Of a stretch of 64,000 nt of DNA, positions 18,705-51,940 are shown in pieces. The translations under genes were made by a program, and so were the position numbers. The notes beneath the pieces were generated by a model. That model made no database searches, had not been told where the DNA came from, and was given only the letters and a program-made list of their open reading frames with translations. Numbering within the stretch: position 1 is the first letter of the stretch; each line of letters opens with the position of its first letter. The DNA is from Rhodothermales bacterium. GTDB lineage: Bacteria > Bacteroidota > Rhodothermia > Rhodothermales > VXPQ01. The stretch covers positions 325,005 to 389,004 of the forward strand of contig OZ220686.1 of assembly GCA_965116435.1 (NCBI GenBank), read 5' to 3'.

Positions 18705-19138
18705 GCGAAGAATTAACGCAAGATCATCAGGAAGCATTGGTTCCGTCCGACGACCTCGATGAAGAAACGCTCCAGGATTTTTTCTTCCTGGAGAAGAGTC
18801 GGGTAGCCGCCGACCGCGAGCGGGTGCAGCTGGGAGTCAAGGCAATCGAAGCCCAGAGTGCTGCTGACCAGCGCCTATACGAATTTCAGATGGCTCAGTT
18901 GGACAAAGGGTATGAGGATAGACGGGACAGGTTCAAAGCGGCGCTAAAAATTATATGGGTCGCATTTGTATTTGTCATGCTGGGCGCTGGAGCGTTGTTC
19001 TACCTTCTTTTTGCAGGCAACGAACTTCAGCAGGATATGGCGTTTGAACTCCTGAAGTTGTTAGGCGCCGCCGTTGCAGGGGGGGGGGCCGTTTCGCTTA
19101 CTGCCAACGCCCTTAAAAAAGCCTCCTCCATGGTATAA
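18701..19138 (+). CDS. Hypothetical membrane protein (145 aa)
   Basis: Acidic coiled N-terminal part, then a TM helix IIWVAFVFVMLGAGALFYLLF. It is coupled to the upstream ORF and contains a G10 tract (AGGGA). Confidence 0.45.
   Translation: MSEELTQDHQEALVPSDDLDEETLQDFFFLEKSRVAADRERVQLGVKAIEAQSAADQRLYEFQMAQLDKGYEDRRDRFKAALKIIWVAFVFVMLGAGALFYLLFAGNELQQDMAFELLKLLGAAVAGGGAVSLTANALKKASSMV
19079..19088 (+). repeat. Homopolymeric G10 tract inside the 18701-19138 ORF
   Basis: Counted directly. Confidence 0.95.
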
Positions 19139-28418: not shown

Positions 28419-28841
28419 ATGCGCGACAAACCGCCCATGCCGGATATCATGGAACGGACGCTTGCCAGCGAAGCCGCAAGCATCGAACGGATCGTTCCGG
28501 AAACGGAAGCCTTCCTTGCAGGGCGCGTATCCGACGAGGACCTGGCCTATCGCATCGTGCTCCTGACCGTGGAGGCCGTTACGAACGCCATCGAACACGG
28601 AAACCGGTTCGATCCGGCCAAAAAAGTGCATTTCCGGATGCACGCGGAGGGCGCACGGATCGAGGTGGTCGTAGAGGACGAGGGGGAAGGATTCAACCCG
28701 GAAACCTCTGCCGATCCGCGGGCATGCGAAAACCTGTTGCAGGAGGGCGGGCGCGGCCTGCTTTTCATGCAATCCATGGCGAACCAGGTCGTATTCGAGA
28801 ACGACGGCAGGAAGGTGCGTCTCGTTTTCGATGTCGGGTAA
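28419..28841 (+). CDS. Anti-sigma regulatory factor-type Ser/Thr kinase (HATPase_c, RsbW/SpoIIAB-like)
   Basis: The ORF was trimmed to ATG 28419. It has the N-box EAVTNAIEHG, G1 DEGEGF and G2 GGRGLLFM. About 140 aa. Confidence 0.75.
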   Translation: MRDKPPMPDIMERTLASEAASIERIVPETEAFLAGRVSDEDLAYRIVLLTVEAVTNAIEHGNRFDPAKKVHFRMHAEGARIEVVVEDEGEGFNPETSADPRACENLLQEGGRGLLFMQSMANQVVFENDGRKVRLVFDVG

Positions 28842-31185
28842 AGGTGCAGGAGCCTCTGATCCAGACCGCTTCGCTCCGTCCGGCGCGTTCGCGGGCGCAG
28901 GAGGCCGTACGCCCTCGGGCCGCACCCTGATCCTGCTGGGGCTGCTGGTCCTCGCCATGGGCGGCATGGCGTGGGGGGCTGCGGCGCCGGAAACCCGCGG
29001 GGCCTTCGTCGCGTCGGCGCTGGCCGCTGGCGCGCTCTGCGTCCTCGTCTGGAAACACGGGGATGTCTCCATGCCCGTCGTGATTGGCCTGGCCCTCGCG
29101 TTCCGGCTGGCCGTATGCTGGCTGCCCCCGACCCTCTCCGACGACGCCTACCGGTACGTATGGGACGGCCTCGTGCAGGCCGAAGGGCATAATCCGTATC
29201 TGCATGCGCCGGACAGCCCGGACCTCGAAGCCCTGCGAGACGAACCCCTGTACGAGGAACTCAATTCGCAGCGCCTGCACACGGTATACCCGCCCGTCTC
29301 CCAGCTCGTGTTCCGGATCGGGGCCGTGTTTTACGACCGGGGGTGGGTCGTTTCCTGGTTTGTGATCAAGGGGATTCTCGCGCTCCTTGAGTTCGGAGCC
29401 GTACTTGTGCTGGCGCGCATGCTTTCTCCCCGGCAATTGCTGCTCTACGCATGGAACCCGGCGGTGGCGCTGGTCGGAGCCGGGCAGGGACACAGCGAAG
29501 CAGCCATGGCGCTGTTTCTGGCGCTGGCGTTGTATGCGTTGCGAAAGGACCAGGGCGTCCGGGCGTCCGTCTGGCTGGCCTGTGCCGGCGGGGTCAAACT
29601 ATATCCGTTTTTGCTGCTTCCTTTTCTGTGGCGTCGCTTTGGCTGGAAGAGCGTAGCGGCGAGCCTCGGCATGGCGCTTCTGCCCGCGTTGCCGTTCTTG
29701 CATGTTGGAATAACGGATATCATGCAAAACATGGGATCATCGCTTCATCTCTATGTGCGCCTTTTTGAATTTAATGCTGGATTATACTATTGCTTGAAGT
29801 ATTTTTTGATGCTTTTGACGGGATTGGACGTGGGAAAACTGCTCGGGCCGATGCTTGCGGCGGCGTATCTGGGGGGGCTGGGGGCGCTCTATGCGGGCTA
29901 TGCGCGGCGCAGAAAACCCACCGGAACCGGTTGGAAAGCCTGGGCGGATTCGCACGCAAAAAAGCATGACACCCGAGGAGCGATACCTACGCTCCCTGCC
30001 GGAGCCGGCTGGAAGGCCTGGGCGGATTCGCACGGCATTTTGCGGGAAGATGGCCCCCTGCGGCCTCTGTTTGTTTGGGCGGCGGGCGGATTTCTTGTAT
30101 GCGCCACCACCGTGCATCCGTGGTATTTGCTGGGCGTGCTTGTGCTCGCTGCGCCTGCGGAACGCCCGGCATGGCATTGGTGGGGGCTGTCCCTGTGCTC
30201 GCTCGGGACCTATTGGCTCTATACGGGCGGCCCCTACTGGCTGTGGGTCTGGATGGGGTGGGGCGGATGGACCGCGCTGGCCGCCTGGCGCTATCGCGGT
30301 CCGCTCACGGACCTGTTGTTGCGGGCCCGCGCCGCCCGCAAAGCCGCCCGCGTGGCGCGTTTTCTGGCGGGGTCCCGGTCGGTGCTGGATGTGGGAGCCG
30401 CCGAAGGATATGTCGGCGCGAACGTGGAGAAACGTCTTGCGGCGAACGCGGCGAAACGCCTTGCGGCGGGCAGGTGGGGAGCGGTGCGTTTTCTGGCGGG
30501 GTCCCGTTCCGTGCTGGATGTGGGGGCCGCCGAGGGGTATGTCGGGGCTAATGTGGCGAAACGCCTTGGCGCGAACGCGGCGAAACGCCTTGGGGCGAGC
30601 AAGGAGGTAGCCGTGCGCCTGGTGGATATTCAGGATCGGAACCGGACTTCGCTGCCGCTGGACGTATACGACGGGCAGCGTTTGCCCTACGCTTCCGATG
30701 CGTTCGATGCGGCTCTCCTGATTTTCGTCCTGCACCACGCCGACCGCCCGGAGGCGCTGCTCCGCGAAACCTTACGGGTGGGCCAGCGCGTAGCGATCCT
30801 CGAATCGACGTATGTATGGGGATGGGAACGGGCCTTGCTCGGACTGCTGGATCGGCTGGCGAATCGCCTGCGGGCGGAGGGTTCTGGGACCGGGTTGGAG
30901 GGTTCTATGTCTGGGTCAAAAGGGCCTGCGCCCAAGTCGGAAGGGTCTACGCCCAAGTTGGAGAGGTCTGCGCCCAGGTTGCGGGGGGGGGGGGTGTCCA
31001 GACTGGAGGGGCCGCTGGGCTTTCGGACCCATGAGGCCTGGCTGGATTGTTTTCGCGAGATGGGACTCCGGGTGGTGCACTCAGCACAGTCTCGCCGGTG
31101 CGTGGACCGGCAATCGCTGTTTGTGGTGGAGTGGGGAGATGGGGTAGCGGGGGGTGTTTCCCCGAGCAAGGATGCCCCTCGCTAA
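28831..31185 (+). CDS. Polytopic GT-C-like membrane glycosyltransferase (DUF2029/GT87-like) fused to a class I SAM methyltransferase domain
   Basis: 784 aa. It has multiple TM helices and an early loop motif LSDDAYRYVWDGLVQAEGHNPY. The C-terminal part has VLDVGAAEGYVG (motif I, present twice) and FDAALLIFVLHHADRPEALL. It also contains several internal tandem duplications and a G12 tract. Confidence 0.6.
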   Translation: MSGKGAGASDPDRFAPSGAFAGAGGRTPSGRTLILLGLLVLAMGGMAWGAAAPETRGAFVASALAAGALCVLVWKHGDVSMPVVIGLALAFRLAVCWLPPTLSDDAYRYVWDGLVQAEGHNPYLHAPDSPDLEALRDEPLYEELNSQRLHTVYPPVSQLVFRIGAVFYDRGWVVSWFVIKGILALLEFGAVLVLARMLSPRQLLLYAWNPAVALVGAGQGHSEAAMALFLALALYALRKDQGVRASVWLACAGGVKLYPFLLLPFLWRRFGWKSVAASLGMALLPALPFLHVGITDIMQNMGSSLHLYVRLFEFNAGLYYCLKYFLMLLTGLDVGKLLGPMLAAAYLGGLGALYAGYARRRKPTGTGWKAWADSHAKKHDTRGAIPTLPAGAGWKAWADSHGILREDGPLRPLFVWAAGGFLVCATTVHPWYLLGVLVLAAPAERPAWHWWGLSLCSLGTYWLYTGGPYWLWVWMGWGGWTALAAWRYRGPLTDLLLRARAARKAARVARFLAGSRSVLDVGAAEGYVGANVEKRLAANAAKRLAAGRWGAVRFLAGSRSVLDVGAAEGYVGANVAKRLGANAAKRLGASKEVAVRLVDIQDRNRTSLPLDVYDGQRLPYASDAFDAALLIFVLHHADRPEALLRETLRVGQRVAILESTYVWGWERALLGLLDRLANRLRAEGSGTGLEGSMSGSKGPAPKSEGSTPKLERSAPRLRGGGVSRLEGPLGFRTHEAWLDCFREMGLRVVHSAQSRRCVDRQSLFVVEWGDGVAGGVSPSKDAPR
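30357..30614 (+). repeat. In-frame 129-bp tandem duplication (43 aa) duplicating the SAM-binding motif I region, with nested 21-bp sub-repeats
   Basis: RFLAGSRSVLDVGAAEGYVGANV.KRL.ANAAKRL.A occurs twice, with units starting at 30357 and 30486. Confidence 0.9.
30983..30994 (+). repeat. Homopolymeric G12 tract inside the glycosyltransferase-methyltransferase CDS
   Basis: Counted directly. It encodes RGGGV. Three 21-bp repeats (30918-30980) lie just upstream. Confidence 0.95.
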
Positions 31186-36125: not shown

Positions 36126-37118
36126 TCAAGGCGTTGTCTCGTCTATATGGATGTAGTCCGCCGCGCTGTCGCGCAGGCGGTCCCGTTGATGCACGTACAC
36201 CATGGTCGTTTCGATTTTCTTGTGTCGGGCGTGCGACTGCACCTGCTGAATGGAGGCCCCGGATTCGATGGCGAGAGTGCAGCCTGTGTGGCGGAGCGAA
36301 TGCGCCCCGATTTCCTTTGGAAGTCCGGCTCGCCGCGCCGTGCGATCCACAACGCCGTAGATGGAACGCTCCGAAAGGCGTTTCCCGAAACTGTTGTTGC
36401 TTAAAGAGCGCCAAAGGGGGCCGTCCGTAATGCCGTAATACGTTTTCATTCGGTCGATTTCTTCCACGACATGCGGGGGAATTTTCACGTACTGATCGGC
36501 GCCGCCCTTTGTGTCGGGCAAATCGAGCACCTGATAGTCGCCGAGCATGCGAATATCCTCGACGTTCATGGCGGCGGCCTCGGAACGGCGCAATACGCAG
36601 TGGAGCAGGGTGAGCAACAGGGCCCGGTCCCTTGGCGCCGAATGGGCTTGCTTGCCGTCCGGGCCAGGATTCGTCGCCGCCTGCACAAGCCGTCCGGCTT
36701 GCTCGGCGGTCAACACGATGCGGGCGCCGTCGCGGCCGCCCGATTTGCGGACCCGCCGCAAAACATGCCGGCTGGCCGGGTTGCGGGTCAATACGCCGAG
36801 AGCCACCAGCCATTCGAAAAATCCCCGAATGGCTGCGAGGCGGCGTTTGATGGTGGCGGGCTTGTAGCCGTTTTTTTCCATCTCCGCAATGTGCCGGTTA
36901 ATGTCGGTAAACGACAGTTCACGCACCGTCACCGTGTCCGCAAAATCGGATCCGAAGAAAGCCGCCAGATCGTCTCCGTAGGCTTTACGGGTTTGGGGGC
37001 GGTCGTACCGATCCAGAAACGCTTCGACAAGGTTGGCGTCCGGGCGGATAATGCCCGTAGCGACATCCATCAAGGCGATCAAGTCGGCGGAAGAGACGTT
37101 CTGGGACATGGGAGGCAT
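36126..37118 (-). CDS. Tyrosine recombinase, XerC/XerD-like (phage integrase family)
   Basis: 330 aa. It has an N-terminal SAM-like domain (TRKAYGDDLAAFF), and the catalytic region has RRSEAAAMNVEDI ... HSLRHTGCTLAIESGASIQQVQSHARHKKIETTMVYVH (R..H-R-H..Y). Confidence 0.85.
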   Translation of the reverse strand: MPPMSQNVSSADLIALMDVATGIIRPDANLVEAFLDRYDRPQTRKAYGDDLAAFFGSDFADTVTVRELSFTDINRHIAEMEKNGYKPATIKRRLAAIRGFFEWLVALGVLTRNPASRHVLRRVRKSGGRDGARIVLTAEQAGRLVQAATNPGPDGKQAHSAPRDRALLLTLLHCVLRRSEAAAMNVEDIRMLGDYQVLDLPDTKGGADQYVKIPPHVVEEIDRMKTYYGITDGPLWRSLSNNSFGKRLSERSIYGVVDRTARRAGLPKEIGAHSLRHTGCTLAIESGASIQQVQSHARHKKIETTMVYVHQRDRLRDSAADYIHIDETTP

Positions 37119-37177: not shown

Positions 37178-37371
37178 ACGGCGTATAAAACGGGTTGTCA
37201 AGGGGTTTGGTGGTTTTTTTCGAGGGATTTCGTAGCGGGTTGACTTTGCCCGGGCGTTTTCTATATTATATCCGCATTCTCATTTTCGTAACATTTGGCG
37301 CCTTGCGCGGGCGTCCCATAGCGCGGGCGCGGGCCAAGCCTGCAACGCCCCTACTCAGACTCGATAACGAT

Positions 37372-37788
37372 ATGAAAGAACGGTTTATGCTCAAGGCGCT
37401 GGGCTTGCTCCTGGTCGTATTCAGCGCGGAGGCTGTTGTGCAATGGCTCGTCGGATTGTTCGAAGGACGCCTTGTTTTCGAGGCGGACCTGCTCGTGTTG
37501 CTGATCGGCGTTGGGTTGTTTTATGCGCATCCCTTATGGGGCTTGGCGGCAAGAGCGTATGTGGTTTTGTGCGGTCTTGCGCTCATTGCTGTCACCGCGT
37601 TAGCGTTTGCAGGATTCCCGAATGTTGGCAACTGGCTGGAGTTCATGGAACGCGATACCCTCGACTCCATCCCCCCTCCGTTTATCGCGCTGTACGCCGC
37701 TACGTTGCTGGCGCTCCTCGCATGGAGTTACATATTCCTGCATAAAGCGGCCCGCGCGGACAAGGATGTGCGGGAAGTTTCGGAGTGA
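37372..37788 (+). CDS. Hypothetical membrane protein (138 aa, about 4 TM)
   Basis: The ORF was trimmed to ATG 37372 (MKERFMLKALGLLLVVF). It has four hydrophobic helices and no recognised motif. Confidence 0.45.
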   Translation: MKERFMLKALGLLLVVFSAEAVVQWLVGLFEGRLVFEADLLVLLIGVGLFYAHPLWGLAARAYVVLCGLALIAVTALAFAGFPNVGNWLEFMERDTLDSIPPPFIALYAATLLALLAWSYIFLHKAARADKDVREVSE

Positions 37789-37832
37789 GGCGGATCTCTT
37801 TGGATAACATATAATTCCCACATAATAAATAT

Positions 37833-40649
37833 ATGGCGCAGGCGACCATAGACAGACTGATAATCAATTCCCCCTACAAGGAACCGGCAAGGCATTGGAA
37901 CTATGACCGCGCCTCGCGCCTGTTCGATCTCGCAGAGGGTCGGCGTCCGGCCGGATATGTTGTAGCTTCGCAGGACTCCAAGACCTTTGATGACCCTGGA
38001 ACCTTTGTAGAAATCCCTCTGGTTAATCAGATTCGCACCCGCGTCAAGAAGTGGCGCGACGCAGGGTATCCGGGCGTAACCGGCGTTACTCGCCGCCTGC
38101 TTCAGCACTGGACAGATCCAGAGGAATTCGCCGAACGACGATTCTTCTTTTGCCAGATTGAGGCTGCCGAAACACTGATCTGGCTTGCGGAAGCATCTTC
38201 CTCCGAGAAAGTAGGCATCGATATTCCAGCCGACGGGGGAAATTTCCAGCGGCTATGCGCCAAAATGGCGACGGGTTCAGGGAAAACCGTGGTTATGGCC
38301 ATGATCATCGCATGGCACATCCTGAACAAGGTCGCATTTCCACAGGACCGCCGATTCGCCAAAAATATTCTTGTGATTGCGCCGGGACTGACCGTCAAGA
38401 GCCGCCTGTCGGTTCTGAACCCCTCTCACCCGGAAAATTACTACCAGGCATTTCGCGTCCTCCCCTCCCCTATGCTGGACAAGCTCCGCCAGGGGAAGGT
38501 GCTTGTGCATAACTGGCATGCGCTCAACTGGGAGACGGACGAGAAAATCGCCAATAAACGCAGCGTGGACAAACGCGGAGCGAAGAGCAACGAAGCGTAT
38601 GTACGGGAAGTGCTTGGAGATATGGCGAATGCCCGAAACATACTGGTTATCAATGACGAAGCACATCATGCGTGGCGTGTTCCTGCCGGATCCGGTGCGC
38701 GAGGGATTAAAAAAGAGGATATCAAACCAGGGGACATCGAACAAGCCACGAAATGGATTGGCGGACTGGATCGAATAGACCAGGCTCGCGGGATCCTTGG
38801 GTGCTACGATTTTTCGGCGACGCCTTTTGTCCCGTCCGGCAAAAAAAGTTCGGAGGAAGCGCTGTTCGACTGGATCGTGAGCGATTTCGGGCTGAATGAC
38901 GCTATTGAAGCCGGTCTCGTCAAAACACCCCGCGTAGTGATCCGCGACGACGCCGTTCGAGACGCAAAAACCTACAAATCGCGGCTTTATCATATCTATA
39001 ACGATTCTGAAGTAAAGGACGACCTGAATCGAAAGGCCGAGCCAACGGCTCCTCTTCCCGACCTTGTTCTGAATGGCTATTACCTTCTCGGGTACGACTG
39101 GCGCGAAACAGCAAGGCAATGGCAGTCTCAAGGCTATAAGACCCGGCCAGCAATGATTACCGTGACAAATCGCACGGAGACGGCGGCGAGGATCAAGCAC
39201 TCTTTCGACAACGGCAAAATCCGCATTGACGAGCTTTGCGATGCGAAGCGAACGCTTCACATCGACTCGAAAGTCCTTGAAAAGGCCGAAGCCGCCGACG
39301 GGCCGATCGCCGAAAGCAACAAGAAATCTAAGCCAAAACAGCGCGCCGAATTTTTGCGCTTGCAGGTAGACACCGTGGGGCAGGAAGGAAAGCCCGGAGC
39401 GGATATCCAGAATGTGATCGCCGTGGGGATGCTATCCGAAGGCTGGGACGCCAGAACCGTAACGCACATCATGGGCCTGCGGGCCTTCACCAGCCAGTTG
39501 TTATGCGAACAGGTGGTAGGGCGTGGCCTGCGCCGCACCGCCTATGAAACGAATCCGGAAACCGGTCGCTTCGATCCGGAATACGTCAATATCTTTGGTG
39601 TGCCCTTTACGTTTTTGCCGCACGAATCGAAGCCAGGCGTAGTGCCGCCTCCGCCTAAGCCGAAAACCGAAATCAAACCTGATCCCGAAAAGGCGGCGTT
39701 CGAGATTCGGTGGCCCAATCTCGTTCGTATTGATCGCGTATTCCGTCCGCATTTAACCCTTGATCCAGATCAGGTAGCGCAGATCGAGTTGAGTGCAGGG
39801 CAAACCATTCGCATCGCCGAACTGGCGCCCGTGGTCGAGGGCAAGCCAGACTTGAGGAAGATATCCCTTATCGAACTCGACAAACTGGCTCGCGAGTTCC
39901 GTACCCAACGTATCGTGTTCGAAACGGCGGCGGAGGTATACGACCGGATGCAGACGGATTGGCAAGGCAGCCGGGAATTTCTGCTGGCCCAGTTGGTGAG
40001 GCTCATAGACAAATTCATCCGCTCCGACAGGATTGTCGTTACATCCTCCCTGTTCGACCAGGATCGTCTAAAACGCCGCCTGATCATTACGCTTAACATG
40101 ACCAGGATTGTCGAACATATCTGGCAGGCGATTCACTTCGAAAACGTCGAAAAACTGGAGCCGGTATTCGATTCGGACCGCCCTGTTTGCTCAACCGGAG
40201 ACATGATCACCTGGCATTCCAGCAAGCCTTGCGAACCGACCGAACACAGCCACATCAATTTCTGCGTGTACGACAGCGCCTGGGAGGCAACGGAAGCCTT
40301 CGCTCTGGATCGCAGCCCCCTCGTGGAGGCATGGGTGAAGAACGATCATCTCGGTTTCGAGGTGTTTTACGTGTATCGCGGGGTGGTCAGAAAATATCGC
40401 CCCGACTTTCTCGTCAGGCTGACCTCTGGCGCTATGCTGGTTCTGGAAGTCAAAGGCAAAGAGAGCGAGCAGGATCGTATCAAGCACGGGTTTCTCGACA
40501 GATGGGTTGCCGCCGTCAATGCGCATGGAGGGTTTGGGCGATGGACCTGGGCTGTTTCGAGGAATCCTGGCGATATTCACGATATCCTCACGAAAAATGT
40601 GTTGCCGGATGTGTCTAAAGGGATGTCGGATACTCTTGCGGGAACATAA
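37833..40649 (+). CDS. res: Type III restriction enzyme Res subunit (SF2 helicase plus C-terminal PD-(D/E)xK nuclease)
   Basis: Motif I MATGSGKTVVMA, motif II VINDEAHHAW, motif VI EQVVGRGLRR, and a C-terminal nuclease-like PDFLVRL....LVLEVKGKE. 938 aa and intact. Confidence 0.85.
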   Translation: MAQATIDRLIINSPYKEPARHWNYDRASRLFDLAEGRRPAGYVVASQDSKTFDDPGTFVEIPLVNQIRTRVKKWRDAGYPGVTGVTRRLLQHWTDPEEFAERRFFFCQIEAAETLIWLAEASSSEKVGIDIPADGGNFQRLCAKMATGSGKTVVMAMIIAWHILNKVAFPQDRRFAKNILVIAPGLTVKSRLSVLNPSHPENYYQAFRVLPSPMLDKLRQGKVLVHNWHALNWETDEKIANKRSVDKRGAKSNEAYVREVLGDMANARNILVINDEAHHAWRVPAGSGARGIKKEDIKPGDIEQATKWIGGLDRIDQARGILGCYDFSATPFVPSGKKSSEEALFDWIVSDFGLNDAIEAGLVKTPRVVIRDDAVRDAKTYKSRLYHIYNDSEVKDDLNRKAEPTAPLPDLVLNGYYLLGYDWRETARQWQSQGYKTRPAMITVTNRTETAARIKHSFDNGKIRIDELCDAKRTLHIDSKVLEKAEAADGPIAESNKKSKPKQRAEFLRLQVDTVGQEGKPGADIQNVIAVGMLSEGWDARTVTHIMGLRAFTSQLLCEQVVGRGLRRTAYETNPETGRFDPEYVNIFGVPFTFLPHESKPGVVPPPPKPKTEIKPDPEKAAFEIRWPNLVRIDRVFRPHLTLDPDQVAQIELSAGQTIRIAELAPVVEGKPDLRKISLIELDKLAREFRTQRIVFETAAEVYDRMQTDWQGSREFLLAQLVRLIDKFIRSDRIVVTSSLFDQDRLKRRLIITLNMTRIVEHIWQAIHFENVEKLEPVFDSDRPVCSTGDMITWHSSKPCEPTEHSHINFCVYDSAWEATEAFALDRSPLVEAWVKNDHLGFEVFYVYRGVVRKYRPDFLVRLTSGAMLVLEVKGKESEQDRIKHGFLDRWVAAVNAHGGFGRWTWAVSRNPGDIHDILTKNVLPDVSKGMSDTLAGT

Positions 40650-40666
40650 ACGTCTGGTTACACACC

Positions 40667-43197
40667 ATGCCGAAAAAGAAAGACATTGAAAGCTACGCGC
40701 ACACCGATAAGGAGCGGACGAACAACCCTCCCGTCGGGCTGGTAACCCCTGAAACCGATCGGGATCAAGGCAGGAAGGGCTATGCTCACGATCCTCATAT
40801 CGACCCACAACTCGTCTGGGCCGGAAAGGCGGAGCATACGTCGTTCGAGGTCCCGACCGTCTCGCTGCATGTGCACGAACGCATAGATGCGCGTACGATC
40901 ATCGAGGCGACGCGGAAACGCAATGGCGCGCTGCCCCAGCCTTCGTTATTTGAAGGTCTGGGGGAAAATCCGCCGCTTCGCCAAGCCATCGAGTTCTACC
41001 GGCACAAGCATAACTGGACCAACCGCCTCGTTGCGGGCGACAGCCTGCTCGTCATGAACAGCCTGCTGGAAAAGGAAGGGCTTGGCGGGCAGGTGCAGAT
41101 GATTTACATAGATCCGCCGTATGGAATCAGTTACGGATCGAATTTCCAGCCTTTTGTGAATACGCGAAATGTGAAGGACGGAGAGGATGGGGATTTGACT
41201 GCAGAACCGGAACAGATCCGCGCTTTTCGAGACACCTGGGAAATGGGCATCCATTCCTATCTGGCGTATCTGCGAGATCGCCTTCTGATTTCGCGGGAAC
41301 TACTCACCGAGAGCGGTTCCTGTTTCGTGCAGATCGGCGATGAAAACATCCACCGCGTGGGTATGGTGATGGACGAAATTTTCGGCGCAGAGAATCGCAT
41401 AGCTACCATATCCTTCGCCACAACGAGCGGAAGTTCCACGTCCACCCTGCCACAAGTAGCCGATTACCTTCTCTGGTACGCAAGGGATCACAAAAAGGTG
41501 AAATACCGGCAAATATATGAATCCCTGACGCGGAGTGAGATAGTAGACCTTTTCAATTGGGATGTCATGGTAGAATTGCCGGATGGCGCATGCCGGAAGC
41601 TTACCCCCCAGGAACGCTTTGATCCCGATGCATATTTGCCCGAAGGCGCTCGCATTTATCAACGCACCGGACTGGATTCGCAAGGTGTTTCTACAACAGG
41701 TCGCTCCGAGCCTTATGAATGGAACGGCAGGGTATTTCCTTGCGGGAAAAATCGCCATTGGTCCATTTCCAAAGAAGGCATGGACCGTTTGGCCGAGCTG
41801 GGCAGACTGGAAGCGCTTGCTGGCCAAGAGTCGCTCAGGTGGAGAAAATACGAAAATGAAGTGCCAGGGCGACGCATCAACAATGTCTGGCCAGTCAAAA
41901 TGTACCCCAGCACAAAATCCTATGTGGTGGAGACCTCTACGAAAGCCATCCAGCGTTGCCTGCTGATGACCACGGATCCCGGCGATCTTGTGCTTGATCC
42001 CACTTGCGGTAGCGGAACCACGGCCTTCGTCGCCGAGCAGTGGGGACGAAGATGGCTTACTTGCGATACCTCGCGCGTTGCTATCACACTGGCCAAACAG
42101 CGGCTGATGACGGCGCATTTCGACTATTACGAATTGGCGCATCCTGACGAGGGAGTAGGTAGCGGTTTTCGCTACAAAACAGTCCCGAAGGTTTCTCCCA
42201 AGGTTCTCACAGGCGACGAATCGCAATCTGATATAGTCCTCTACGACCAGCCCCTGAAAGACAATAAAAAGTTTCGCGTCACGGGTCCATTCACACTGGA
42301 AGCCGTGCCTGCGCCTACGGTAAAACCGCTGGACGATATACAAGATACCCCCCCCCCCCCCACACGCCACCAGATGACTCGGTTGCTCGCTCGGGAGAAA
42401 CGCTCCGCCAGAGCGACTGGCGCGACGAATTGTACAAAACCGGCATCCGAGGCAAGGCCGGGCAGCGTATCTCATTTGTCCGCCTGGAACCACTTCCTGG
42501 CTGTCACTGGCTACACGCCGACGGGGAGACGCGCTCTGATAATGCCGAAACGGACTCCGAACGGGTTGTTATTTCCTTCGGTCCCGATCATGCTCCATTG
42601 GAACAACGCCAGGTGGCCTTAGCCATTGAAGAGGCGCAAAACCTCGTTCCCAAGCCGAAAATCATCGTTTTTGCCGCTTTTCAGTTTGACCCCGAGGCTG
42701 CCAAAGATATCGACGAAACAAATTGGCCCGGCGTAACTTTACTCAAGGCGCAAATGAACGCGGACCTGCTGACGGGAGACCTGAAGAAAAAACGCTCCAG
42801 CAACGAAAGCTTCTGGCTTATCGGCCAACCGGACGTAGAATTGGAAACAATGCAAGACGGCAAACTGCGGGTATCCGTACTCGGATTCGACTACTACAAT
42901 ACAAAAACCGGCAAGCCGGAATCCGGCGGATCGGACCGAATCGCCGTGTGGATGCTGGACCCGGATTACGATGGCCGTAGCCTGTTTCCGCATCAGGTTT
43001 TCTTTCCTTTGGCCGGTCCCAAAGACGGCTGGACCCGCCTTGCGCGCAACCTGAAGGCCGAGCTCGACGAACGTCTCATAGAAGCCTATCGCGGCACAAC
43101 CTCCCTTCCCTTCGAGCCGGGCGAGCACCGGCGCGTGGCGGTCAAGATCGTGGACGACCGGGGCATTGAAAGTTTGAAAATTGTGGAGGTGGGTTGA
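40667..43197 (+). pseudogene. mod: Type III-like DNA methyltransferase (Mod, N6/N4 beta-class), split by a frameshift inside a C14 tract
   Basis: Motif IV IYIDPPYG precedes motif I LVLDPTCGSGTTAFVA. Frame 2 (40667-42622) leaves the expected sequence at the C tract. The conserved C-terminal domain (..DWRDELYKTGIRGKAGQRISF...AFQFDPEAAKDIDE...DYDGRSLFPHQVFFP) continues in frame 1 directly from the tract to 43197. A tract of C15 or C12 would give one ORF of about 840 aa. Confidence 0.8.
42348..42361 (+). repeat. Homopolymeric C14 tract at the mod frameshift
   Basis: Counted directly (3+10+1 C across the line breaks). Confidence 0.95.
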
Positions 43198-44021
43198 TGG
43201 AAAGGCCGAGTAAGAAGAAAGCGATGGAGCGTTTGCAGAAAGCCCGAGAGGCAATTAATGAATTGCGGAGTCCGGATATCCTACGTGATCAGAGTAGCTC
43301 TCCAAAATTCAAAAAGTGGCACCGAAATACCGAAATTGCTATCACTAACATATTTGGCAATTCTCGTCATATTGAAGATTTTAGAAATGTTCGGTATCGC
43401 CTGCTAGCGTATTCTGATATGACCCCCGACGGAGAGTTCATTGAAGCCTATATACACGGCTTGGATTCAGCAGATGCAATACTTGAGTCAATGCTTGAGG
43501 AGATTAAAGAATATTGGGACAATGACATTAATACATCAACACCACCTTCATCCAAAGAAATATTTCAGTTAGATACAAACAAAATATTTGTCATCCACGG
43601 TAGAGACGAAGGCACCCGAGATATGCTATCTGGATTTATCAAAAAATTAGAACTTCAGCCTGTGATACTATCGGAAAAATCAAATCAGGGACTCACGATC
43701 ATTGAAAAATTCGAGAAGTATTCAGAAGTCGGATTCGCGATAGCTTTGCTGACGCCCGACGACACCGGATCGCTTAAAGAAGCCGAAAACAAACCGAATC
43801 CACGCGCTCGGCAAAACGTGATCTTCGAATTGGGCTTCTTCATTGGAAAAATTGGGCGAGAACGCGTATGCGCCCTTACCAAAGGAAAGCTGGAAATACC
43901 TTCGGACTACTCCGGCGTTGTGTACATATCATTGGATGACTCTGGTGGATGGAAGCTCCAACTTTGCAAAGAACTCAAGGACGCTGGATACGCAGTAGAC
44001 GTAAATCGAATTATGGAGTGA
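43197..44021 (+). CDS. TIR-like domain protein (CAP12/Pycsar-effector-type, COG4271-like) with an N-terminal helical domain
   Basis: The C-terminal 140 aa, KIFVIHGRDEGTRDMLSGFIKKLELQPVIL....IIEKFE....FAIALLTPDD......RARQNVIFELGFFIGKIGRERVCAL.KG.LEIPSDYSGVVY, match the TIR-like nucleotide-binding family as I remember it. The ATG overlaps the mod stop (TGATG). The gene is very low in GC. Confidence 0.7.
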   Translation: MERPSKKKAMERLQKAREAINELRSPDILRDQSSSPKFKKWHRNTEIAITNIFGNSRHIEDFRNVRYRLLAYSDMTPDGEFIEAYIHGLDSADAILESMLEEIKEYWDNDINTSTPPSSKEIFQLDTNKIFVIHGRDEGTRDMLSGFIKKLELQPVILSEKSNQGLTIIEKFEKYSEVGFAIALLTPDDTGSLKEAENKPNPRARQNVIFELGFFIGKIGRERVCALTKGKLEIPSDYSGVVYISLDDSGGWKLQLCKELKDAGYAVDVNRIME

Positions 44022-44062
44022 ATAAAAAAATAAGGTTTATATTTTTTCATAATGGTGTATAA

Positions 44063-44323
44063 ATGCTGTTCATCCGAAAAGCCGAAGCGGAACAATTGCT
44101 TCTTTCAGGCTTTGCCCGGGGTATGGTTAGCACCCATCGCCAGGGAAACCTGAGCCTGCCCAAGTTTGTATGGGCCGTGGACGACCAGGGCGAGGTTTAC
44201 GAAGCAAAACTGGACGGCGACGGACCCGGCTATCACGGGTACCGAATCAACGAATATCGAGACGCAGGCTCGCGCGTAATGCGCAAACAGGTGCTAAGGG
44301 CATGGAAACGACGGAGCAATTGA
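44063..44323 (+). CDS. Hypothetical small basic protein (86 aa)
   Basis: ATG ORF containing KFVWAVDDQGEVYEAKLDGDGPGYHGYRINE. It overlaps the next ORF by 22 nt. No family was recognised. Confidence 0.45.
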   Translation: MLFIRKAEAEQLLLSGFARGMVSTHRQGNLSLPKFVWAVDDQGEVYEAKLDGDGPGYHGYRINEYRDAGSRVMRKQVLRAWKRRSN

Positions 44324-45054
44324 AATTTACGTTCGTCCCGGAGCCGCTGGAGGAAGGCTCCCCGGAAGAGAAGGCTTCTTTCGGCAAGGTTTCCATTGCC
44401 GCAAACGGGCGCGTACTGACCGAAGGCATTGCGTTGCTGGAGGACAACGAGCTCGTCAGCGGGTCCCATGTTTCTGCCTATCATATGGCCGAATGGCTGC
44501 TGTGGAACTGGTGGCGGTTGCTTTGGGAGCCCCGTCCGGAAGGCGTGGAAAACGGCAAGGACGAGGATAAAGACGATACATGGTTCGAATGGGTTTTTGC
44601 GCACAATTTGTCCTCCATCGGCGAGGGTTATCTGTGGCCGGATATCGAAATGGCGTCGGACGGCGGGCTGATGCATCTGGCCTCTTCGCCGACCGGAGAT
44701 CCGAATGAAAAGGTGTTTCGCTTCGTGGGAGCATCGCGGCTGGAGACCATCCCGGTCGGGGCATTCATGAAGGCCGTGGACGAATTCGCCTGTGCCGTGC
44801 TGGAGCGCCTGGACGAGGCAAATATTCGGGATACCAACCTGCATGTTCTCTGGCGTCAGTTGGCGCGGGAACGGGAGGACAAGGCCGCGGCGGCGTTTCG
44901 CCGCATGGAGGCGATACTGGGATATGATCCCGGCGAAGGAGAGGACGACGAGATACGGGAATACCTTGCGGACGCCGCAACATTAGGAATGGATATTCGC
45001 CTTGCTCGCATTGCAGGACACTTGCTCGGAAGTTCCGCCGTTTCCGACGAGTAA
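44302..45054 (+). CDS. Hypothetical acidic protein (250 aa)
   Basis: The ORF was trimmed to ATG 44302 (METTEQLKF). It has the Trp-rich motif HMAEWLLWNWWRLLWEP. It ends 13 bp from the convergent Calx-beta gene and may be 3'-truncated. Confidence 0.5.
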   Translation: METTEQLKFTFVPEPLEEGSPEEKASFGKVSIAANGRVLTEGIALLEDNELVSGSHVSAYHMAEWLLWNWWRLLWEPRPEGVENGKDEDKDDTWFEWVFAHNLSSIGEGYLWPDIEMASDGGLMHLASSPTGDPNEKVFRFVGASRLETIPVGAFMKAVDEFACAVLERLDEANIRDTNLHVLWRQLAREREDKAAAAFRRMEAILGYDPGEGEDDEIREYLADAATLGMDIRLARIAGHLLGSSAVSDE

Positions 45055-45067
45055 GGCCTCCCCTACC

Positions 45068-47773
45068 CTACCGTAGCAGCGTCATTTTCCTCGTGAGCGT
45101 TTCTCCGTTCGCCTGGAGTCGATAGACGTACAGGCCCGACGGCAGGCTGTCCGCGTCGAAGCGTACGGTATGCGTTCCTGCCGGGCACACCCCGTCTACG
45201 AGGACGCCTACGCTGCGCCCGGTGGCGTCGAATACTTCCAGGCGGACGTGTTGGGGGGCGGGAAGCTCGTATTCTATCGCCGTCGAGGGGTTGAACGGGT
45301 TCGGGTAGTTCTGGCCCAGCGCAAACGCATCCGGGAGTTCCCCTTCGGGAGATTCTATCGACGTTACGTTTTCATCTTCCGAGATGATCACGTCCACAGA
45401 TGCGGGCGTCCCTCTCGAAAAACCGGCGGGCAAGGCTCCGAACGTTACCGTGAACGTTTCGTCCTCCATGTCGTCGTCCTTTGTGGTGAGGATCCAGTCC
45501 GTTCCGAAGGGTTCGTTTGCGTCTATGACGATGGTTGCGAGGGCCACGTAGTCGCCTGTTTCGCCGTCGTTTGTGGTGAAGACGAGGGGCAAGGTCACCA
45601 CGCTGGGTACGGTATGCGCCAGTTCGGCGTGGATGGTGGCTCTTCTGCCTTCGTAGATGGGGTTCGGGTACACAGCCAGCGTAATCTGGGTCGGGTCGTT
45701 GCCGCCACCGGGGTCGCCGCCACCGGGGTTTCCTCCGCCCGGGTTTCCACCACCGCCGCCCGAATCATCGTCGTTCACCGTCACTGTCGCGGAGTTGGCG
45801 CTGCCCACCGTGTAGCCATTGCCGTTTTTCAGCGTTACCGTCACCGAGCCGTTCGCCTCATCCGCGTTGTCGTCCTCGGTGGAGATGGCGACGGTTGTGC
45901 TGGCTGCGGAGATGCTCCGCGTCTTGTCGCCAAGTTGGCCGGACGCCAAGAACGTTCCGCTTTGCGAGACCGTGTAGGCGACCGTGATGCTGCTACCCGG
46001 CGCAGGGTTCGACGAAATGGTGAACGAAGCATCGCCGCCCTCGGTCACCGCCGACCCACCGGTGATGGTTAGCTCCGGCGTCGCTGTAGCCCGATCGTTG
46101 TCCGTAATCGTCAGCGTGTGCATAGCTCTCGTCGTGCCGACATTGTAGCCCGTGCCGCTACCCAGCGTCAAAATAACCGTCTCGCTGCCTTCCACCACGC
46201 TGTCGTCCGTGATGGCGACCGGAATGCTCGCCGTGCCCGAAGTCCCAACGGTGATTGAGCCGCTATTACTACTCACCCCGTTGATAGAATAATCCGTCCC
46301 GCGCGTGGCGCCGCCGGAGAGCATGTAGTTCACCGTAACGTTCCCACTTGGCGCAGGGCTGAGATTCACCGCGACGTTTTGTGTCCCGCCGCCCTCCGCC
46401 GCGCTCGAAGCGGACGCCCCGAAGTTCGCTTCGGGCGTACTTGGCGCATCGTCGTCCGTCACCGTCACCGTCACGCTGGGGATAGAGAACGTCGTCAACG
46501 CCGCCGGACGGTACTTCTGGCCGTCCCCGTCGCCCGCCTCGATCGTGTGCGTGATCGTACGGGTGCGCTCGCCGCCCGTATTCACGATGTGGTCGTTCTG
46601 GCCCGTGATCGTCACCGTCTGCGCCGTGCTCCAGTTGCTTGTCGTGAACGTCAGCGTATCTTTTGCCTTCGGCTTCGCATTCCCGCCGGGACCGTCCACG
46701 AACGCTGCGCCTCCGGCGGTCACGGTGATGATCACTTGCCCCGCAGGCCGCGTGTCCAGGCCCACGGTGTAGGTCGCCGTGCCTCCGTTCTCCGCGACCG
46801 TGCGGGCGCTCTGCGATACGGTCACTCCCGCCGTGTCGTTGTCGTTCACGGTCACCGTCGCGGAGTTCGCGGTGCCCACCGTATAGCCCGTGCCCGCGTT
46901 TACGGTCACCGTCACGCTGCCGTTGTTCTCGTCCGTATCGTCGTCCACGGTGGAGACGGAGTGGGTAGCGGAGCCGGACGTGGGTACGGAAACCGTCTTG
47001 CTGCTGCCGATCAATCCAGAGGTTGCGAAGTTGCCGCTCTCGCTCACGGTCAGTTTGACGGTGAGGGCCGAGGCCGGCGCAGGGCTTGCCGTCACCGTGA
47101 AGCTGGCATCCGCGCCCTCGGTCACGGAAGACGATCCCCCCGCAATAGTGACCTCCGGGAGGGTTACGGTGTCGTCGTCAAGGATCGTGTGGGTATGGGT
47201 CGATGTGCCGAGGGTGACATCCGAACGGGCGTTGCCGAGAAAGGATAGCGTTGCGATCACCGTCTCGTCGGACTCAACGTCGGTGTCGCCCCGCACCTGG
47301 ATGGCTATGTGAGGATAATCAAGGCTGGAAAAAGCATCCGCTCCCAATGATGCCTTTTCGCAGGTGCTTGCACGGGGGCTGTTGGACAATATCGTTCGGT
47401 AGTCTGCGCCTGGGGTGCCCCAACCACCTTGACCATCATCTTGCGTATTGATGGTCGCCGTGCCACTGAAACAGATCTCAAAAGGCACAGTACCTGGTAC
47501 CTGCTTTGACAGGGTCACCGTGTAGGCAAGGCTCCTTATACCCGAATCCCCTTCGTTCGCGTCCGCAGGTCCACTGATAGACAGGGTGGCGGCCTGCGCG
47601 GCGGCCTCGTAGACCGGTCCCCATACCATACACAGCGCGGCCAGCCACGCTATCCATAGAATGCGGCGACAGGAAAGGGCGCGCCGCGCCGCCGAAGCAG
47701 CGCCTGATTTACAAGATAGCCCCCCCCCCCTCACGTTCGAGGAATCATTCTCCCGAAGAAACGAAGAAATCAT
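45068..47773 (-). CDS. Secreted Calx-beta repeat protein with T9SS C-terminal sorting domain (paralogue A, in frame)
   Basis: 901 aa. The leader is MISSFLRENDSSNVRGGGLSCKSGAASAARRALSCRRILWIAWLAALCMVWGPVYEAAAQA. It has Calx-beta modules, a linker GGGGGNPGGGNPGGGDPGGGN, and the C-terminus FALGQNYPNPFNPSTAIEYEL...LYVYRLQANGETLTRKMTLLR. Confidence 0.85.
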   Translation of the reverse strand: MISSFLRENDSSNVRGGGLSCKSGAASAARRALSCRRILWIAWLAALCMVWGPVYEAAAQAATLSISGPADANEGDSGIRSLAYTVTLSKQVPGTVPFEICFSGTATINTQDDGQGGWGTPGADYRTILSNSPRASTCEKASLGADAFSSLDYPHIAIQVRGDTDVESDETVIATLSFLGNARSDVTLGTSTHTHTILDDDTVTLPEVTIAGGSSSVTEGADASFTVTASPAPASALTVKLTVSESGNFATSGLIGSSKTVSVPTSGSATHSVSTVDDDTDENNGSVTVTVNAGTGYTVGTANSATVTVNDNDTAGVTVSQSARTVAENGGTATYTVGLDTRPAGQVIITVTAGGAAFVDGPGGNAKPKAKDTLTFTTSNWSTAQTVTITGQNDHIVNTGGERTRTITHTIEAGDGDGQKYRPAALTTFSIPSVTVTVTDDDAPSTPEANFGASASSAAEGGGTQNVAVNLSPAPSGNVTVNYMLSGGATRGTDYSINGVSSNSGSITVGTSGTASIPVAITDDSVVEGSETVILTLGSGTGYNVGTTRAMHTLTITDNDRATATPELTITGGSAVTEGGDASFTISSNPAPGSSITVAYTVSQSGTFLASGQLGDKTRSISAASTTVAISTEDDNADEANGSVTVTLKNGNGYTVGSANSATVTVNDDDSGGGGGNPGGGNPGGGDPGGGNDPTQITLAVYPNPIYEGRRATIHAELAHTVPSVVTLPLVFTTNDGETGDYVALATIVIDANEPFGTDWILTTKDDDMEDETFTVTFGALPAGFSRGTPASVDVIISEDENVTSIESPEGELPDAFALGQNYPNPFNPSTAIEYELPAPQHVRLEVFDATGRSVGVLVDGVCPAGTHTVRFDADSLPSGLYVYRLQANGETLTRKMTLLR
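47720..47730 (-). repeat. Homopolymeric G11 tract (C11 on the + strand) in the leader of paralogue A
   Basis: Counted directly. It encodes RGGG between ATG 47773 and the signal peptide. Confidence 0.95.
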
Positions 47774-51800: not shown

Positions 51801-51940
51801 CGCTATCCATAGAACGCGGCGAGCGAAAAGGACGCGCCGCGGCGCCGAAGCAGCACCTGATTTACAAGATAGCCCCCCCCCCCCCTCACGTTCGAGGAAT
51901 CATTCCCAGAATCGTTCCCCCGAAGAAACGAAGAAATCAT
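48828..51940 (-). pseudogene. Calx-beta/T9SS-CTD paralogue B, with its start codon out of frame because of a G13 tract (candidate phase-OFF allele)
   Basis: The body ORF 48828-51782 (984 aa) starts only at a Met inside the hydrophobic core (MVCTVWGPISEAAAQ). The homologous leader MISSFLRGNDSGNDSSNVRGGGG starts at ATG 51940 in another frame and stops at 51803. G11 or G14 would fuse the two. Confidence 0.8.
51873..51885 (-). repeat. Homopolymeric G13 tract (C13 on the + strand) in the leader of paralogue B
   Basis: Counted directly (8+5 C across the line break). Confidence 0.95.

What the first reader, a model, noticed from the sequence alone, without database searches (positions are those of the whole stretch)
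40667..43197. Type III mod methyltransferase interrupted exactly at a C14 tract (candidate phase-variable R-M / phasevarion)
The Mod ORF (DPPY then FxGxG, beta-class) reads ..LDDIQDTPPPP and then runs into unrelated sequence until a stop at 42622. Translating frame 1 backwards from 42430 shows that the conserved C-terminal domain (PPPHTPPDDSVARSGETLRQSDWRDELYKTGIRGKAGQ...) is open right up to the tract. The only lesion is therefore the tract length, and C15 or C12 would restore a Mod of about 840 aa. Res (938 aa) is intact. In Type III systems Res needs Mod for target recognition, so tract slippage would toggle both restriction and the methylome. Phase-variable Type III mod genes are established in Haemophilus, Neisseria and Helicobacter. 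Finding one in an environmental high-GC T9SS bacterium, alongside SSR-controlled surface proteins, would be unusual.
Basis: partly seen in the sequence, partly recalled or inferred. Interest (0 to 1): 0.65.

Follow-up and report, generated by a model that had tools for sequence, protein, structure and literature searches.

The report
Poly-C switch in restriction methylase gene
A DNA-methylase gene of a restriction (anti-phage) system is broken only by the length of a run of 14 C's, and an otherwise identical copy in another sample has 12 C's and is intact, so this is most likely a slippage-driven on/off switch of a well-known kind.

Summary
C14 lies at 42348-42361. The mod frame from 40667 runs into it and stops at 42622, and the conserved C-terminal frame is open from the tract to 43197. 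C12 or C15 gives an 842/843-aa Mod. An independent metagenome contig (L001) carries the same res-mod-TIR module. Over about 6.5 kb its only difference from the window is C12 instead of C14, which gives an intact Mod, while the flanks differ by 2-10%. A third, low-quality contig has C10.

G/C runs in the window are bimodal: none of 8-9 nt, seven of 10-14 nt. Four lie at or just upstream of T9SS surface-protein genes. Homologous mod genes in other sponge-associated MAGs carry independent poly-C tracts at three positions, in and out of frame; no homologous res does.

This is a candidate phase-variable Type III-like R-M system, OFF in this assembly. It is a new member of a known kind, since 17.4% of REBASE Type III mod genes carry SSRs. 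Regulon control ("phasevarion") is untested.

The tract lies after the catalytic core and before the C-terminal domain. In EcoP15I the domain at that position docks Res, so the switch might affect restriction more than methylation. Homopolymer miscalling cannot be excluded without reads.

The parts
37833..40649 (+). res: a 938-aa helicase-nuclease restriction subunit, intact. Walker A is at 38265-38288, DEAH at 38652-38669, motif VI at 39510-39536, and the PD...ExK nuclease motif at 40398-40460.
   Evidence: ORF list and translation. Pfam ResIII, 2e-8. NCBIfam NF046055 'BPTD_3080 family restriction endonuclease', 1104 bits against a cutoff of 800, covering profile positions 2-969 of 970. Motif coordinates. 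The protein is identical in L001.
40667..43197 (+). mod: a beta-class N6/N4 DNA methyltransferase gene. It is full length (842/843 aa) only if the tract is C12 or C15. Here it is split by the C14 tract.
   Evidence: Pfam N6_N4_Mtase, residues 143-477, 1.6e-28. PADLOC MTase_III PDLC03632, 7.7e-153. The nearest solved structures are H. pylori Mod 6k0w and EcoP15I Mod 4zcf. 100% identical to the intact P0001.
40667..42622 (+). The OFF-state reading frame as assembled: 565 native residues (N-terminal region, MTase core with DPPY at 41111-41122 and FxGxG at 41993-42016, and the target recognition region), followed by 86 out-of-frame residues and a TAG stop.
42348..42361 (+). The C14 homopolymer, the candidate slippage switch. 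It lies in the hypervariable linker between the conserved blocks GPFT(V/L)EAVPAP and SVARSG.
   Evidence: The linker is variable and lacks the tract in most of the 80 relatives. The closest relatives carry C5-T-C5 at the site. The tract is C12 in L001 and C10 in L084.
42362..43197 (+). The C-terminal domain of Mod (about 275 aa), out of frame with the 5' part in this assembly and highly conserved in the family.
   Evidence: The frame is open from the tract to 43197. It matches positions 732-982 of the 983-position PADLOC MTase_III profile PDLC03632, 1.8e-21. It has no Pfam family. Many columns are invariant.
43197..44021 (+). A TIR-domain gene (274 aa). Its ATG overlaps the mod stop codon (TGATG). 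A homologue lies directly after mod in 22 of 80 related loci.
   Evidence: Pfam CAP12-PCTIR_TIR, 5.4e-37. PADLOC PDC-S35, 1.9e-84. Overlap seen. Gene call in L001. Count.
36126..37118 (-). A tyrosine recombinase/integrase gene next to the module. It is context only and is conserved at the same place in L001 and L085.
   Evidence: NCBIfam XerC/XerD-like, 4e-33, below the equivalog cutoffs. Phage_integrase gene calls.

Best explanation
This is a Type III-like restriction-modification module (res, then mod, then a TIR gene) in a Rhodothermales bacterium that is probably sponge-associated. Its mod gene carries a hypermutable poly-C tract.

Proposed mechanism:
- Slipped-strand mispairing during replication changes the tract length (inferred from established knowledge of G/C tracts of 9 nt or more).
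- Lengths of 12 or 15 give a full-length Mod of 842/843 aa (shown).
- Lengths such as 14 or 10 end the native sequence at residue 565, just before the C-terminal domain (shown).
- In the window the switch is OFF.
- Type III Res enzymes need Mod to find their sites. In EcoP15I the C-terminal domain of Mod, which occupies the corresponding position, is the part that docks Res. The OFF state should therefore disable restriction (inferred).
- Whether the truncated Mod still methylates is open.

The likely role is bet-hedging of a costly or risky defence system within the population. Methylome-dependent gene regulation is possible but unsupported.
For: 1. Anatomy: the tract is the only lesion, and C12 or C15 restores the frame.
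2. A natural ON allele exists. L001 (ENA ERZ24894576, 141-kb contig) has C12 and an intact 842-aa Mod. Between window positions 37500 and 44000 the two-base tract difference is the only difference, while flanking DNA is 2-10% divergent. The tract is therefore the fastest-changing site in the module.
3. A third contig from another sample, L084, has C10 and no substitutions in the module, but it is low quality.
4. G/C run lengths in the window are bimodal, with seven runs of 10-14 nt against about 0.16 expected. Four of the others lie at or just upstream of T9SS/Calx-beta surface-protein genes. The tract at 51873 also differs between contigs: 13, 10 and 12.
5. The tract is derived. Relatives at about 90% identity have GTG TCC CCC TCC CCC GCC at the site, and a strain with the same chromosomal context (L085) has no tract.
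6. Convergence: among 80 homologous loci, poly-C runs of 9 nt or more occur 5 times in mod, 3 times within 350 bp upstream of mod, and never in res.
   - L053 has C11 in the same linker, in frame.
   - L062 (C13) and L068 (C12) have a tract near residue 40, out of frame although the rest of the gene is intact.
   - L039 has C10 near residue 95, in frame.
7. Res is intact with all motifs.
8. Mononucleotide tracts of 9 nt or more are the accepted criterion for a phase-variable mod gene. 17.4% of REBASE Type III mod genes carry SSRs (PMC5909438).
9. In EcoP15I the CTD of ModA makes extensive contacts with Res, and Mod2 dimerises through the NTD and MTase domains (PMC4490356).
Against: - No read-level data are available. 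The contig names look like long-read metagenome assemblies (my inference), and long homopolymers are the main error mode of such reads. C14 versus C12 could therefore be a consensus miscall.
- L084 is labelled 1x. It also has one-base deletions in G3 and G5 runs of res, so its C10 is weak evidence.
- Only one trustworthy ON/OFF pair exists.
- Length differences between strains show mutability, not reversible switching within a lineage.
- L072 is out of frame because of a one-base indel 10 nt upstream of its tract, not because of tract length.
- The function of the C-terminal domain is inferred by position only. Both AlphaFold models were unusable.
- Res matches the PADLOC Type III res profiles only weakly.
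Confidence: 0.62

Rival explanations
1. Assembly or sequencing artefact. The real tract in the window's population is in frame (C12 or C15). C14 is a homopolymer miscall, so the gene is simply intact and expressed.
For: The only difference from L001 is homopolymer length, which is what a consensus error would look like. The 1x contig L084 shows that homopolymer indels occur in these data. Contig names suggest long-read assemblies (my inference).
Against: The difference is two bases, not one. No other indel is seen in 6.5 kb between the window and L001. Other long ORFs in the window, including ones of 938, 984, 1598 and 1844 aa, are uninterrupted. Even if the length is miscalled, a tract of 12 or more C's is still present and would be mutable. 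Out-of-frame tracts recur in homologues from other assemblies.
Confidence: 0.17
2. Simple decay. The mod gene in this strain is a frameshift pseudogene that happened to break at a slippery run, with no selected or reversible switching. The R-M module is on its way to being lost.
For: The gene is out of frame as assembled. Defence islands turn over quickly, and the same chromosomal site holds a different mod allele without the TIR gene in L085.
Against: There is no second lesion anywhere in res, mod or the TIR gene. The module has zero substitutions relative to the ON allele, so any inactivation is very recent. The tract is part of a genome-wide excess of long G/C runs with a gap at 8-9 nt. Independent tracts arose in homologous mod genes but never in res.
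Confidence: 0.13
3. Recoding. Full-length Mod is made from the C14 template by transcriptional slippage or ribosomal frameshifting on the C run, so the DNA frameshift is not an OFF state, or is only a leaky one.
For: Long homopolymers can promote RNA-polymerase slippage (established for A/T runs; my own knowledge). The downstream frame is perfectly conserved.
Against: The in-frame C12 allele exists, so recoding is not needed to explain the conserved downstream frame. Slippage on G/C runs is less efficient than on A/T runs (my own knowledge). No frameshift-stimulating structure was looked for or found.
Confidence: 0.05

Closest known systems
[quoted passage not shown] 2018, PMC5909438)
   Same: A homopolymeric G/C tract lies inside the mod ORF, and its length sets the reading frame. 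Tract length differs among strains. The mod gene belongs to a Type III-like mod/res pair. It meets the survey's criterion of a mononucleotide run of 9 nt or more.
   Different: The host is a high-GC Rhodothermales MAG, probably a sponge symbiont. The tract lies at residue 562 of about 842, after the catalytic core. Res is intact, and a TIR gene is coupled to mod. No methylome or expression data exist.
modA/modB/modD phasevarions of Haemophilus influenzae and Neisseria
   Same: ON/OFF switching of a Type III Mod by repeat slippage. Strains carry mod alleles with different central target-recognition regions; here L085 differs from the window in this way.
   Different: Those systems use tetranucleotide or pentanucleotide repeats near the 5' end (my own knowledge). 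Their regulons have been shown experimentally. Here regulon control is untested, and the defence context (intact Res plus TIR) points first to switching of restriction.
EcoP15I (Mod2Res1; PDB 4ZCF; PMC4490356)
   Same: A beta-class Mod with the order NTD, MTase, TRD, MTase, CTD, paired with a Res that has a helicase core and a C-terminal nuclease. The N-terminal half of the Mod core aligns by sequence with 4zcf_A (E = 4e-13).
   Different: The gene order here is res then mod. The CTD is about 275 aa against about 105 aa and shows no detectable sequence similarity. Res had no sequence match in the PDB. EcoP15I is not phase variable.
NCBIfam NF046055 'BPTD_3080 family restriction endonuclease' with its partner methyltransferase (PADLOC MTase_III PDLC03632)
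   Same: Res is a full-length member above the curated cutoff. Mod, including its C-terminal domain, matches PDLC03632.
   Different: I found no paper on this family. The poly-C tract is not a family feature, since most of the 80 homologous loci lack it.

Membership tests
Type III restriction-modification system | Mod is a beta-class amino-methyltransferase: motif IV (DPPY) comes before motif I (FxGxG), with the target recognition region between them. | tested here: met
   DPPY is at residues 149-152 and LDPTCGSG at 443-450. Pfam N6_N4_Mtase covers 143-477. PADLOC MTase_III, 7.7e-153. The best PDB matches are the Type III Mods 6k0w and 4zcf.
Type III restriction-modification system | Res has SF2 helicase/ATPase motifs and a PD-(D/E)xK nuclease. 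| tested here: met
   Walker A MATGSGKT, DEAH, QVVGRGLRR, and RPDFLV...LEVKGK at the C-terminus. Pfam ResIII. NCBIfam restriction-endonuclease equivalog, 1104 bits.
Type III restriction-modification system | Sequence membership of Res in curated Type III res profiles. | tested here: inconclusive
   Only weak, partial PADLOC REase_III matches (3e-8 and 1e-5). No match in the PDB.
Type III restriction-modification system | mod and res are adjacent and on the same strand. | tested here: met
   res ends at 40649 and mod starts at 40667, on the same strand. The order is res then mod here and in 3 relatives, and mod then res in 67 of 70 relatives.
Type III restriction-modification system | Res depends on Mod for recognition. 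Cleavage needs two inversely oriented unmethylated sites and ATP. Only one strand is methylated. | not testable with these tools
   Biochemical properties.
Phase-variable (SSR contingency) mod gene, criteria of Atack et al. 2018 | A mononucleotide repeat of 9 nt or more inside the mod ORF. | tested here: met
   C14 at 42348-42361. Criterion quoted from PMC5909438.
Phase-variable (SSR contingency) mod gene, criteria of Atack et al. 2018 | Changes in repeat number move the gene between a full-length and a truncated frame. | tested here: met
   C12 and C15 give 842/843 aa. C14 gives 651 aa. C10 gives a called product of 568 aa.
Phase-variable (SSR contingency) mod gene, criteria of Atack et al. 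2018 | Tract-length polymorphism among otherwise near-identical alleles. | tested here: met
   C14 (window), C12 (L001) and C10 (L084, low quality), with zero substitutions across about 6.5 kb. Sequencing error is not excluded.
Phase-variable (SSR contingency) mod gene, criteria of Atack et al. 2018 | High-frequency, reversible switching within a clonal population. | not testable with these tools
   Needs read-level data or culture.
Phasevarion (phase-variable regulon) | ON/OFF state of Mod changes genome-wide methylation and the expression of several genes. | not testable with these tools
   No methylome or transcriptome data.

The most novel reading that the evidence does not exclude
The switch is domain-specific rather than all-or-none. 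The tract sits in the linker just before the C-terminal domain, and the domain at that position docks Res in EcoP15I. The OFF allele could therefore still make a dimeric, active methyltransferase (565 native residues comprising the NTD, MTase core and TRD) that cannot recruit Res. Restriction, and perhaps the translationally coupled TIR gene, would be toggled while the protective methylation stays on. That would allow an intact Res to be switched back on without self-restriction. A second Rhodothermales lineage (L053) has independently placed a C11 tract in the same linker. More broadly, this widely transferred mod-(TIR)-res module has acquired poly-C switches repeatedly in different sponge-symbiont lineages.
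Probability: 0.15. Interest if true: 0.6.

Novelty: new member of a known kind. Interest (0 to 1): 0.4.

Why it matters
Phase-variable Type III methylases are mostly studied in human and animal pathogens. This case would extend them to an uncultured, high-GC Rhodothermales lineage, probably a sponge symbiont, that also has long G/C tracts at or just upstream of surface-protein genes. That suggests contingency loci also operate in a marine animal microbiome.

It is easy to test. ON and OFF alleles with no other differences already exist in public long-read metagenomes. If the raw data keep polymerase kinetics, tract length and methylation can be read from the same DNA molecules.

The position of the tract also raises a specific question about whether restriction can be switched without losing methylation.

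Tried and rejected
- AlphaFold2 on full-length Mod with 43 homologues gave mean pLDDT 40. On the C-terminal domain alone it gave 46.5. Both models are too poor, because the alignments are shallow (75% identity or more), so no fold search was run and the role of the C-terminal domain remains an inference.
- A protein search with the out-of-frame tail, meant to find other OFF alleles, returned only weak and uninformative hits. It did not even return P0001.
- An exact look-up of the 651-aa OFF product found nothing on record.
- A scan of JGI metagenome contigs for the tract with its 5' flank found nothing.
- A sequence search of the PDB with Res found nothing.
- There are no tRNA genes in the window to mark an integration site.
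- No paper mentions BPTD_3080.
- I considered counting L072 as an OFF state caused by tract length and rejected it. Its shift comes from an extra T 10 nt upstream of the tract.
- I considered treating L084's C10 as firm evidence and rejected it, because the contig is 1x and has other homopolymer deletions.
- Promoter scans were not run, because sigma-70 consensus scans are doubtful for this phylum.

Full report
**Observation**

The window has a run of exactly 14 C at 42348-42361.
- The ORF that starts at ATG 40667 reads through the methyltransferase motifs: DPPY at 41111-41122 and LDPTCGSG at 41993-42016.
- It reaches ...LDDIQDTPPPP, continues for 86 unrelated residues, and stops at TAG 42620-42622 (651 aa).
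- A second frame is open from the tract to TGA 43195-43197.
- Inserting one C or deleting two joins the two frames into 843 or 842 residues with no stop.

The tract is not a chance event. G/C runs in the window decline geometrically from 1 to 7 nt. There are none of 8 or 9 nt and seven of 10-14 nt. Extrapolating the decay predicts about 0.16 runs of 10 nt or more.

**What the genes are**

The repaired Mod:
- It has Pfam N6_N4_Mtase over residues 143-477.
- It matches the PADLOC Type III methyltransferase profile PDLC03632 at 7.7e-153.
- Its closest solved relatives are the Type III Mods of H. pylori (6k0w) and EcoP15I (4zcf).
- The last 271 residues match positions 732-982 of the same PADLOC profile and have no Pfam family.

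Res (37833-40649, 938 aa):
- It carries Walker A, DEAH, motif VI and a C-terminal PD...ExK motif.
- It has Pfam ResIII.
- It is a full-length member of NCBIfam NF046055, 'BPTD_3080 family restriction endonuclease' (1104 bits against a cutoff of 800).
- PADLOC's Type III res profiles match only weakly.

I therefore call the system Type III-like.

The gene after mod (43197-44021) overlaps the mod stop codon. It encodes a TIR protein of the CAP12/Pycsar type, PADLOC candidate PDC-S35.

**The decisive comparison**

The repaired Mod is 100% identical to P0001, an intact 842-aa protein on a 141-kb ENA metagenome contig.
- That contig (L001) has C12 at the site.
- In an alignment of window 37253-46117 with L001, the two-base tract difference is the only difference between about 37500 and 44000. 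That stretch holds res, mod and the TIR gene.
- Flanking regions are 2-10% divergent.
- The Res and TIR proteins are identical and are also recorded on a 3.07-Mb contig, presumably the window's source.

A third contig from another sample (L084) again has no substitutions in the module and has C10. It is labelled 1x and has single-base deletions in G3 and G5 runs of res, so I treat its tract length as weak evidence.

A fourth contig (L085, 1450x) has the same chromosomal context. Its mod has a different central recognition region, no tract (DMPLSSVDD) and no TIR gene. The locus is therefore allelic within the lineage, and the tract belongs to one allele.

**Origin and recurrence of the tract**

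The tract lies in a hypervariable linker between two conserved blocks, and most relatives have no long run there. Rhodothermales relatives at about 90% identity have GTG TCC CCC TCC CCC GCC, a plausible proto-tract.

Counts across 80 homologous loci:
- The gene order is mod then res in 67 of 70 loci.
- A TIR homologue directly follows mod in 22.
- G/C runs of 9 nt or more occur 5 times in mod, 0 times in res and 6 times elsewhere. Three of those six lie within 350 bp upstream of mod. All are poly-C on the mod sense strand.

Individual cases:
- L053, a 42%-GC Rhodothermales locus, has C11 in the same linker, in frame.
- L062 (C13) and L068 (C12), both Spongiisociaceae, have a tract near residue 40. 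The conserved N-terminal segment is in a different frame from an otherwise intact gene.
- L039, a Rhodobacteraceae locus, has C10 near residue 95, in frame.
- L072 has the same C10 but is shifted by an indel 10 nt upstream, so it is not a tract-length case.

This family has therefore gained poly-C tracts independently at three positions, and both in-frame and out-of-frame states are seen.

**Host**

The nearest genomes are Rhodothermales MAGs. The family is shared at 63-78% identity with Poribacteria, Entotheonella, Spongiihabitans, Spongiisociaceae, Nitrospira, Latescibacterota and others. I infer a sponge-associated community from these names.

Enrichment and lateral transfer of R-M systems among sponge symbionts is reported in PMC8163846.

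**Mechanism**

- Shown: the tract length alone decides whether the gene is full length or truncated, and both states exist in nature.
- Inferred from established knowledge: G/C runs of this length slip frequently. The survey PMC5909438 cites rates of 1.8-13.5 x 10^-3 for nine-base tracts and uses 9 nt as its criterion.
- Inferred from Type III biology: Res needs Mod.
- In EcoP15I the CTD of ModA makes extensive contacts with Res. Mod2 dimerises through its NTD and MTase domains and can act as a stand-alone methyltransferase (PMC4490356).

The OFF product here keeps 565 native residues, which include the whole catalytic core. Loss of restriction is therefore the safer prediction, and loss of methylation is uncertain. 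I could not test the fold of the C-terminal domain, because both AlphaFold models were poor.

**Rivals**

- A homopolymer miscall is the main rival, because no reads are available.
- Simple decay is unlikely, given that there is no second lesion and no substitutions.
- Recoding is not needed, given the C12 allele.

**Novelty**

SSR-bearing Type III mod genes make up 17.4% of those in REBASE and include environmental species. This is therefore a new member of a known kind.

The modest extra interest comes from four things: the host, the clean ON/OFF allele pair, the recurrence of tracts in a horizontally shared mod-(TIR)-res module, and the unusual position of the tract before the C-terminal domain.

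Noticed in passing
window 4853-4862, 10549-10558, 19079-19088, 30983-30994, 47720-47730, 51873-51885: There are six further G/C runs of 10-13 nt and no runs of 8-9 nt. Four lie near the 5' ends of large T9SS (Por_Secre_tail) and Calx-beta surface-protein genes. In L001 the two homologous tracts lie 163 nt upstream of the called start codons, so they may be promoter or leader tracts. The tract at 51873 is C13 here, C10 in L001 and C12 in L084. The G12 at 30983 is absent from L001.
   Followed up: partly
window 47690-47750 and 51843-51905; compare 42335-42370: The tracts at 47720 and 51873 sit in a shared cassette, GATTTACAAGATAG-Cn-TCACGTTCGAGGAATCATTC. The flanks of the mod tract, GATATACAAGATA-C14-ACACG, resemble it (12 of 13 bases upstream and 4 of 5 downstream), whereas tract-less relatives match less well. 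The mod tract may have been copied from such a cassette by gene conversion, or the resemblance may be chance.
   Followed up: no
window 43197-44021; L002-L081: A TIR-domain gene (CAP12/Pycsar TIR, PADLOC PDC-S35) overlaps the mod stop codon. A homologue lies directly after mod, usually between mod and res, in 22 of 80 related loci. This suggests a conserved three-gene mod-TIR-res module.
   Followed up: partly
window 37500-44000 against L001 and L084: The res-mod-TIR module has zero substitutions across contigs from different samples, while adjacent DNA is 2-10% divergent. This points to a very recent transfer or sweep of the module.
   Followed up: partly
L085 9542-10407 (window 41389-42239): A strain with the same chromosomal context carries a mod allele whose central target-recognition region cannot be aligned with the window's. 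It also has no tract and no TIR gene. This is allelic variation in specificity at one locus.
   Followed up: partly
L002-L081 (genome contigs): This Mod family is shared at 63-78% amino-acid identity across many phyla of MAGs, including two Methanobacteriota archaea (L061, L067). Many have sponge-symbiont names, which implies extensive horizontal transfer. Some members (P0046, P0071, P0118) carry extra PF04480/PF18741 domains.
   Followed up: no
window 30940-31000: A tandem repeat of about 21 nt (GAAGGGTCTACGCCCAAGTTG-like) lies next to the G12 tract, inside the 3' part of ORF 28831-31185 (GT87 and methyltransferase domains). Its copy number differs from L001.
   Followed up: no
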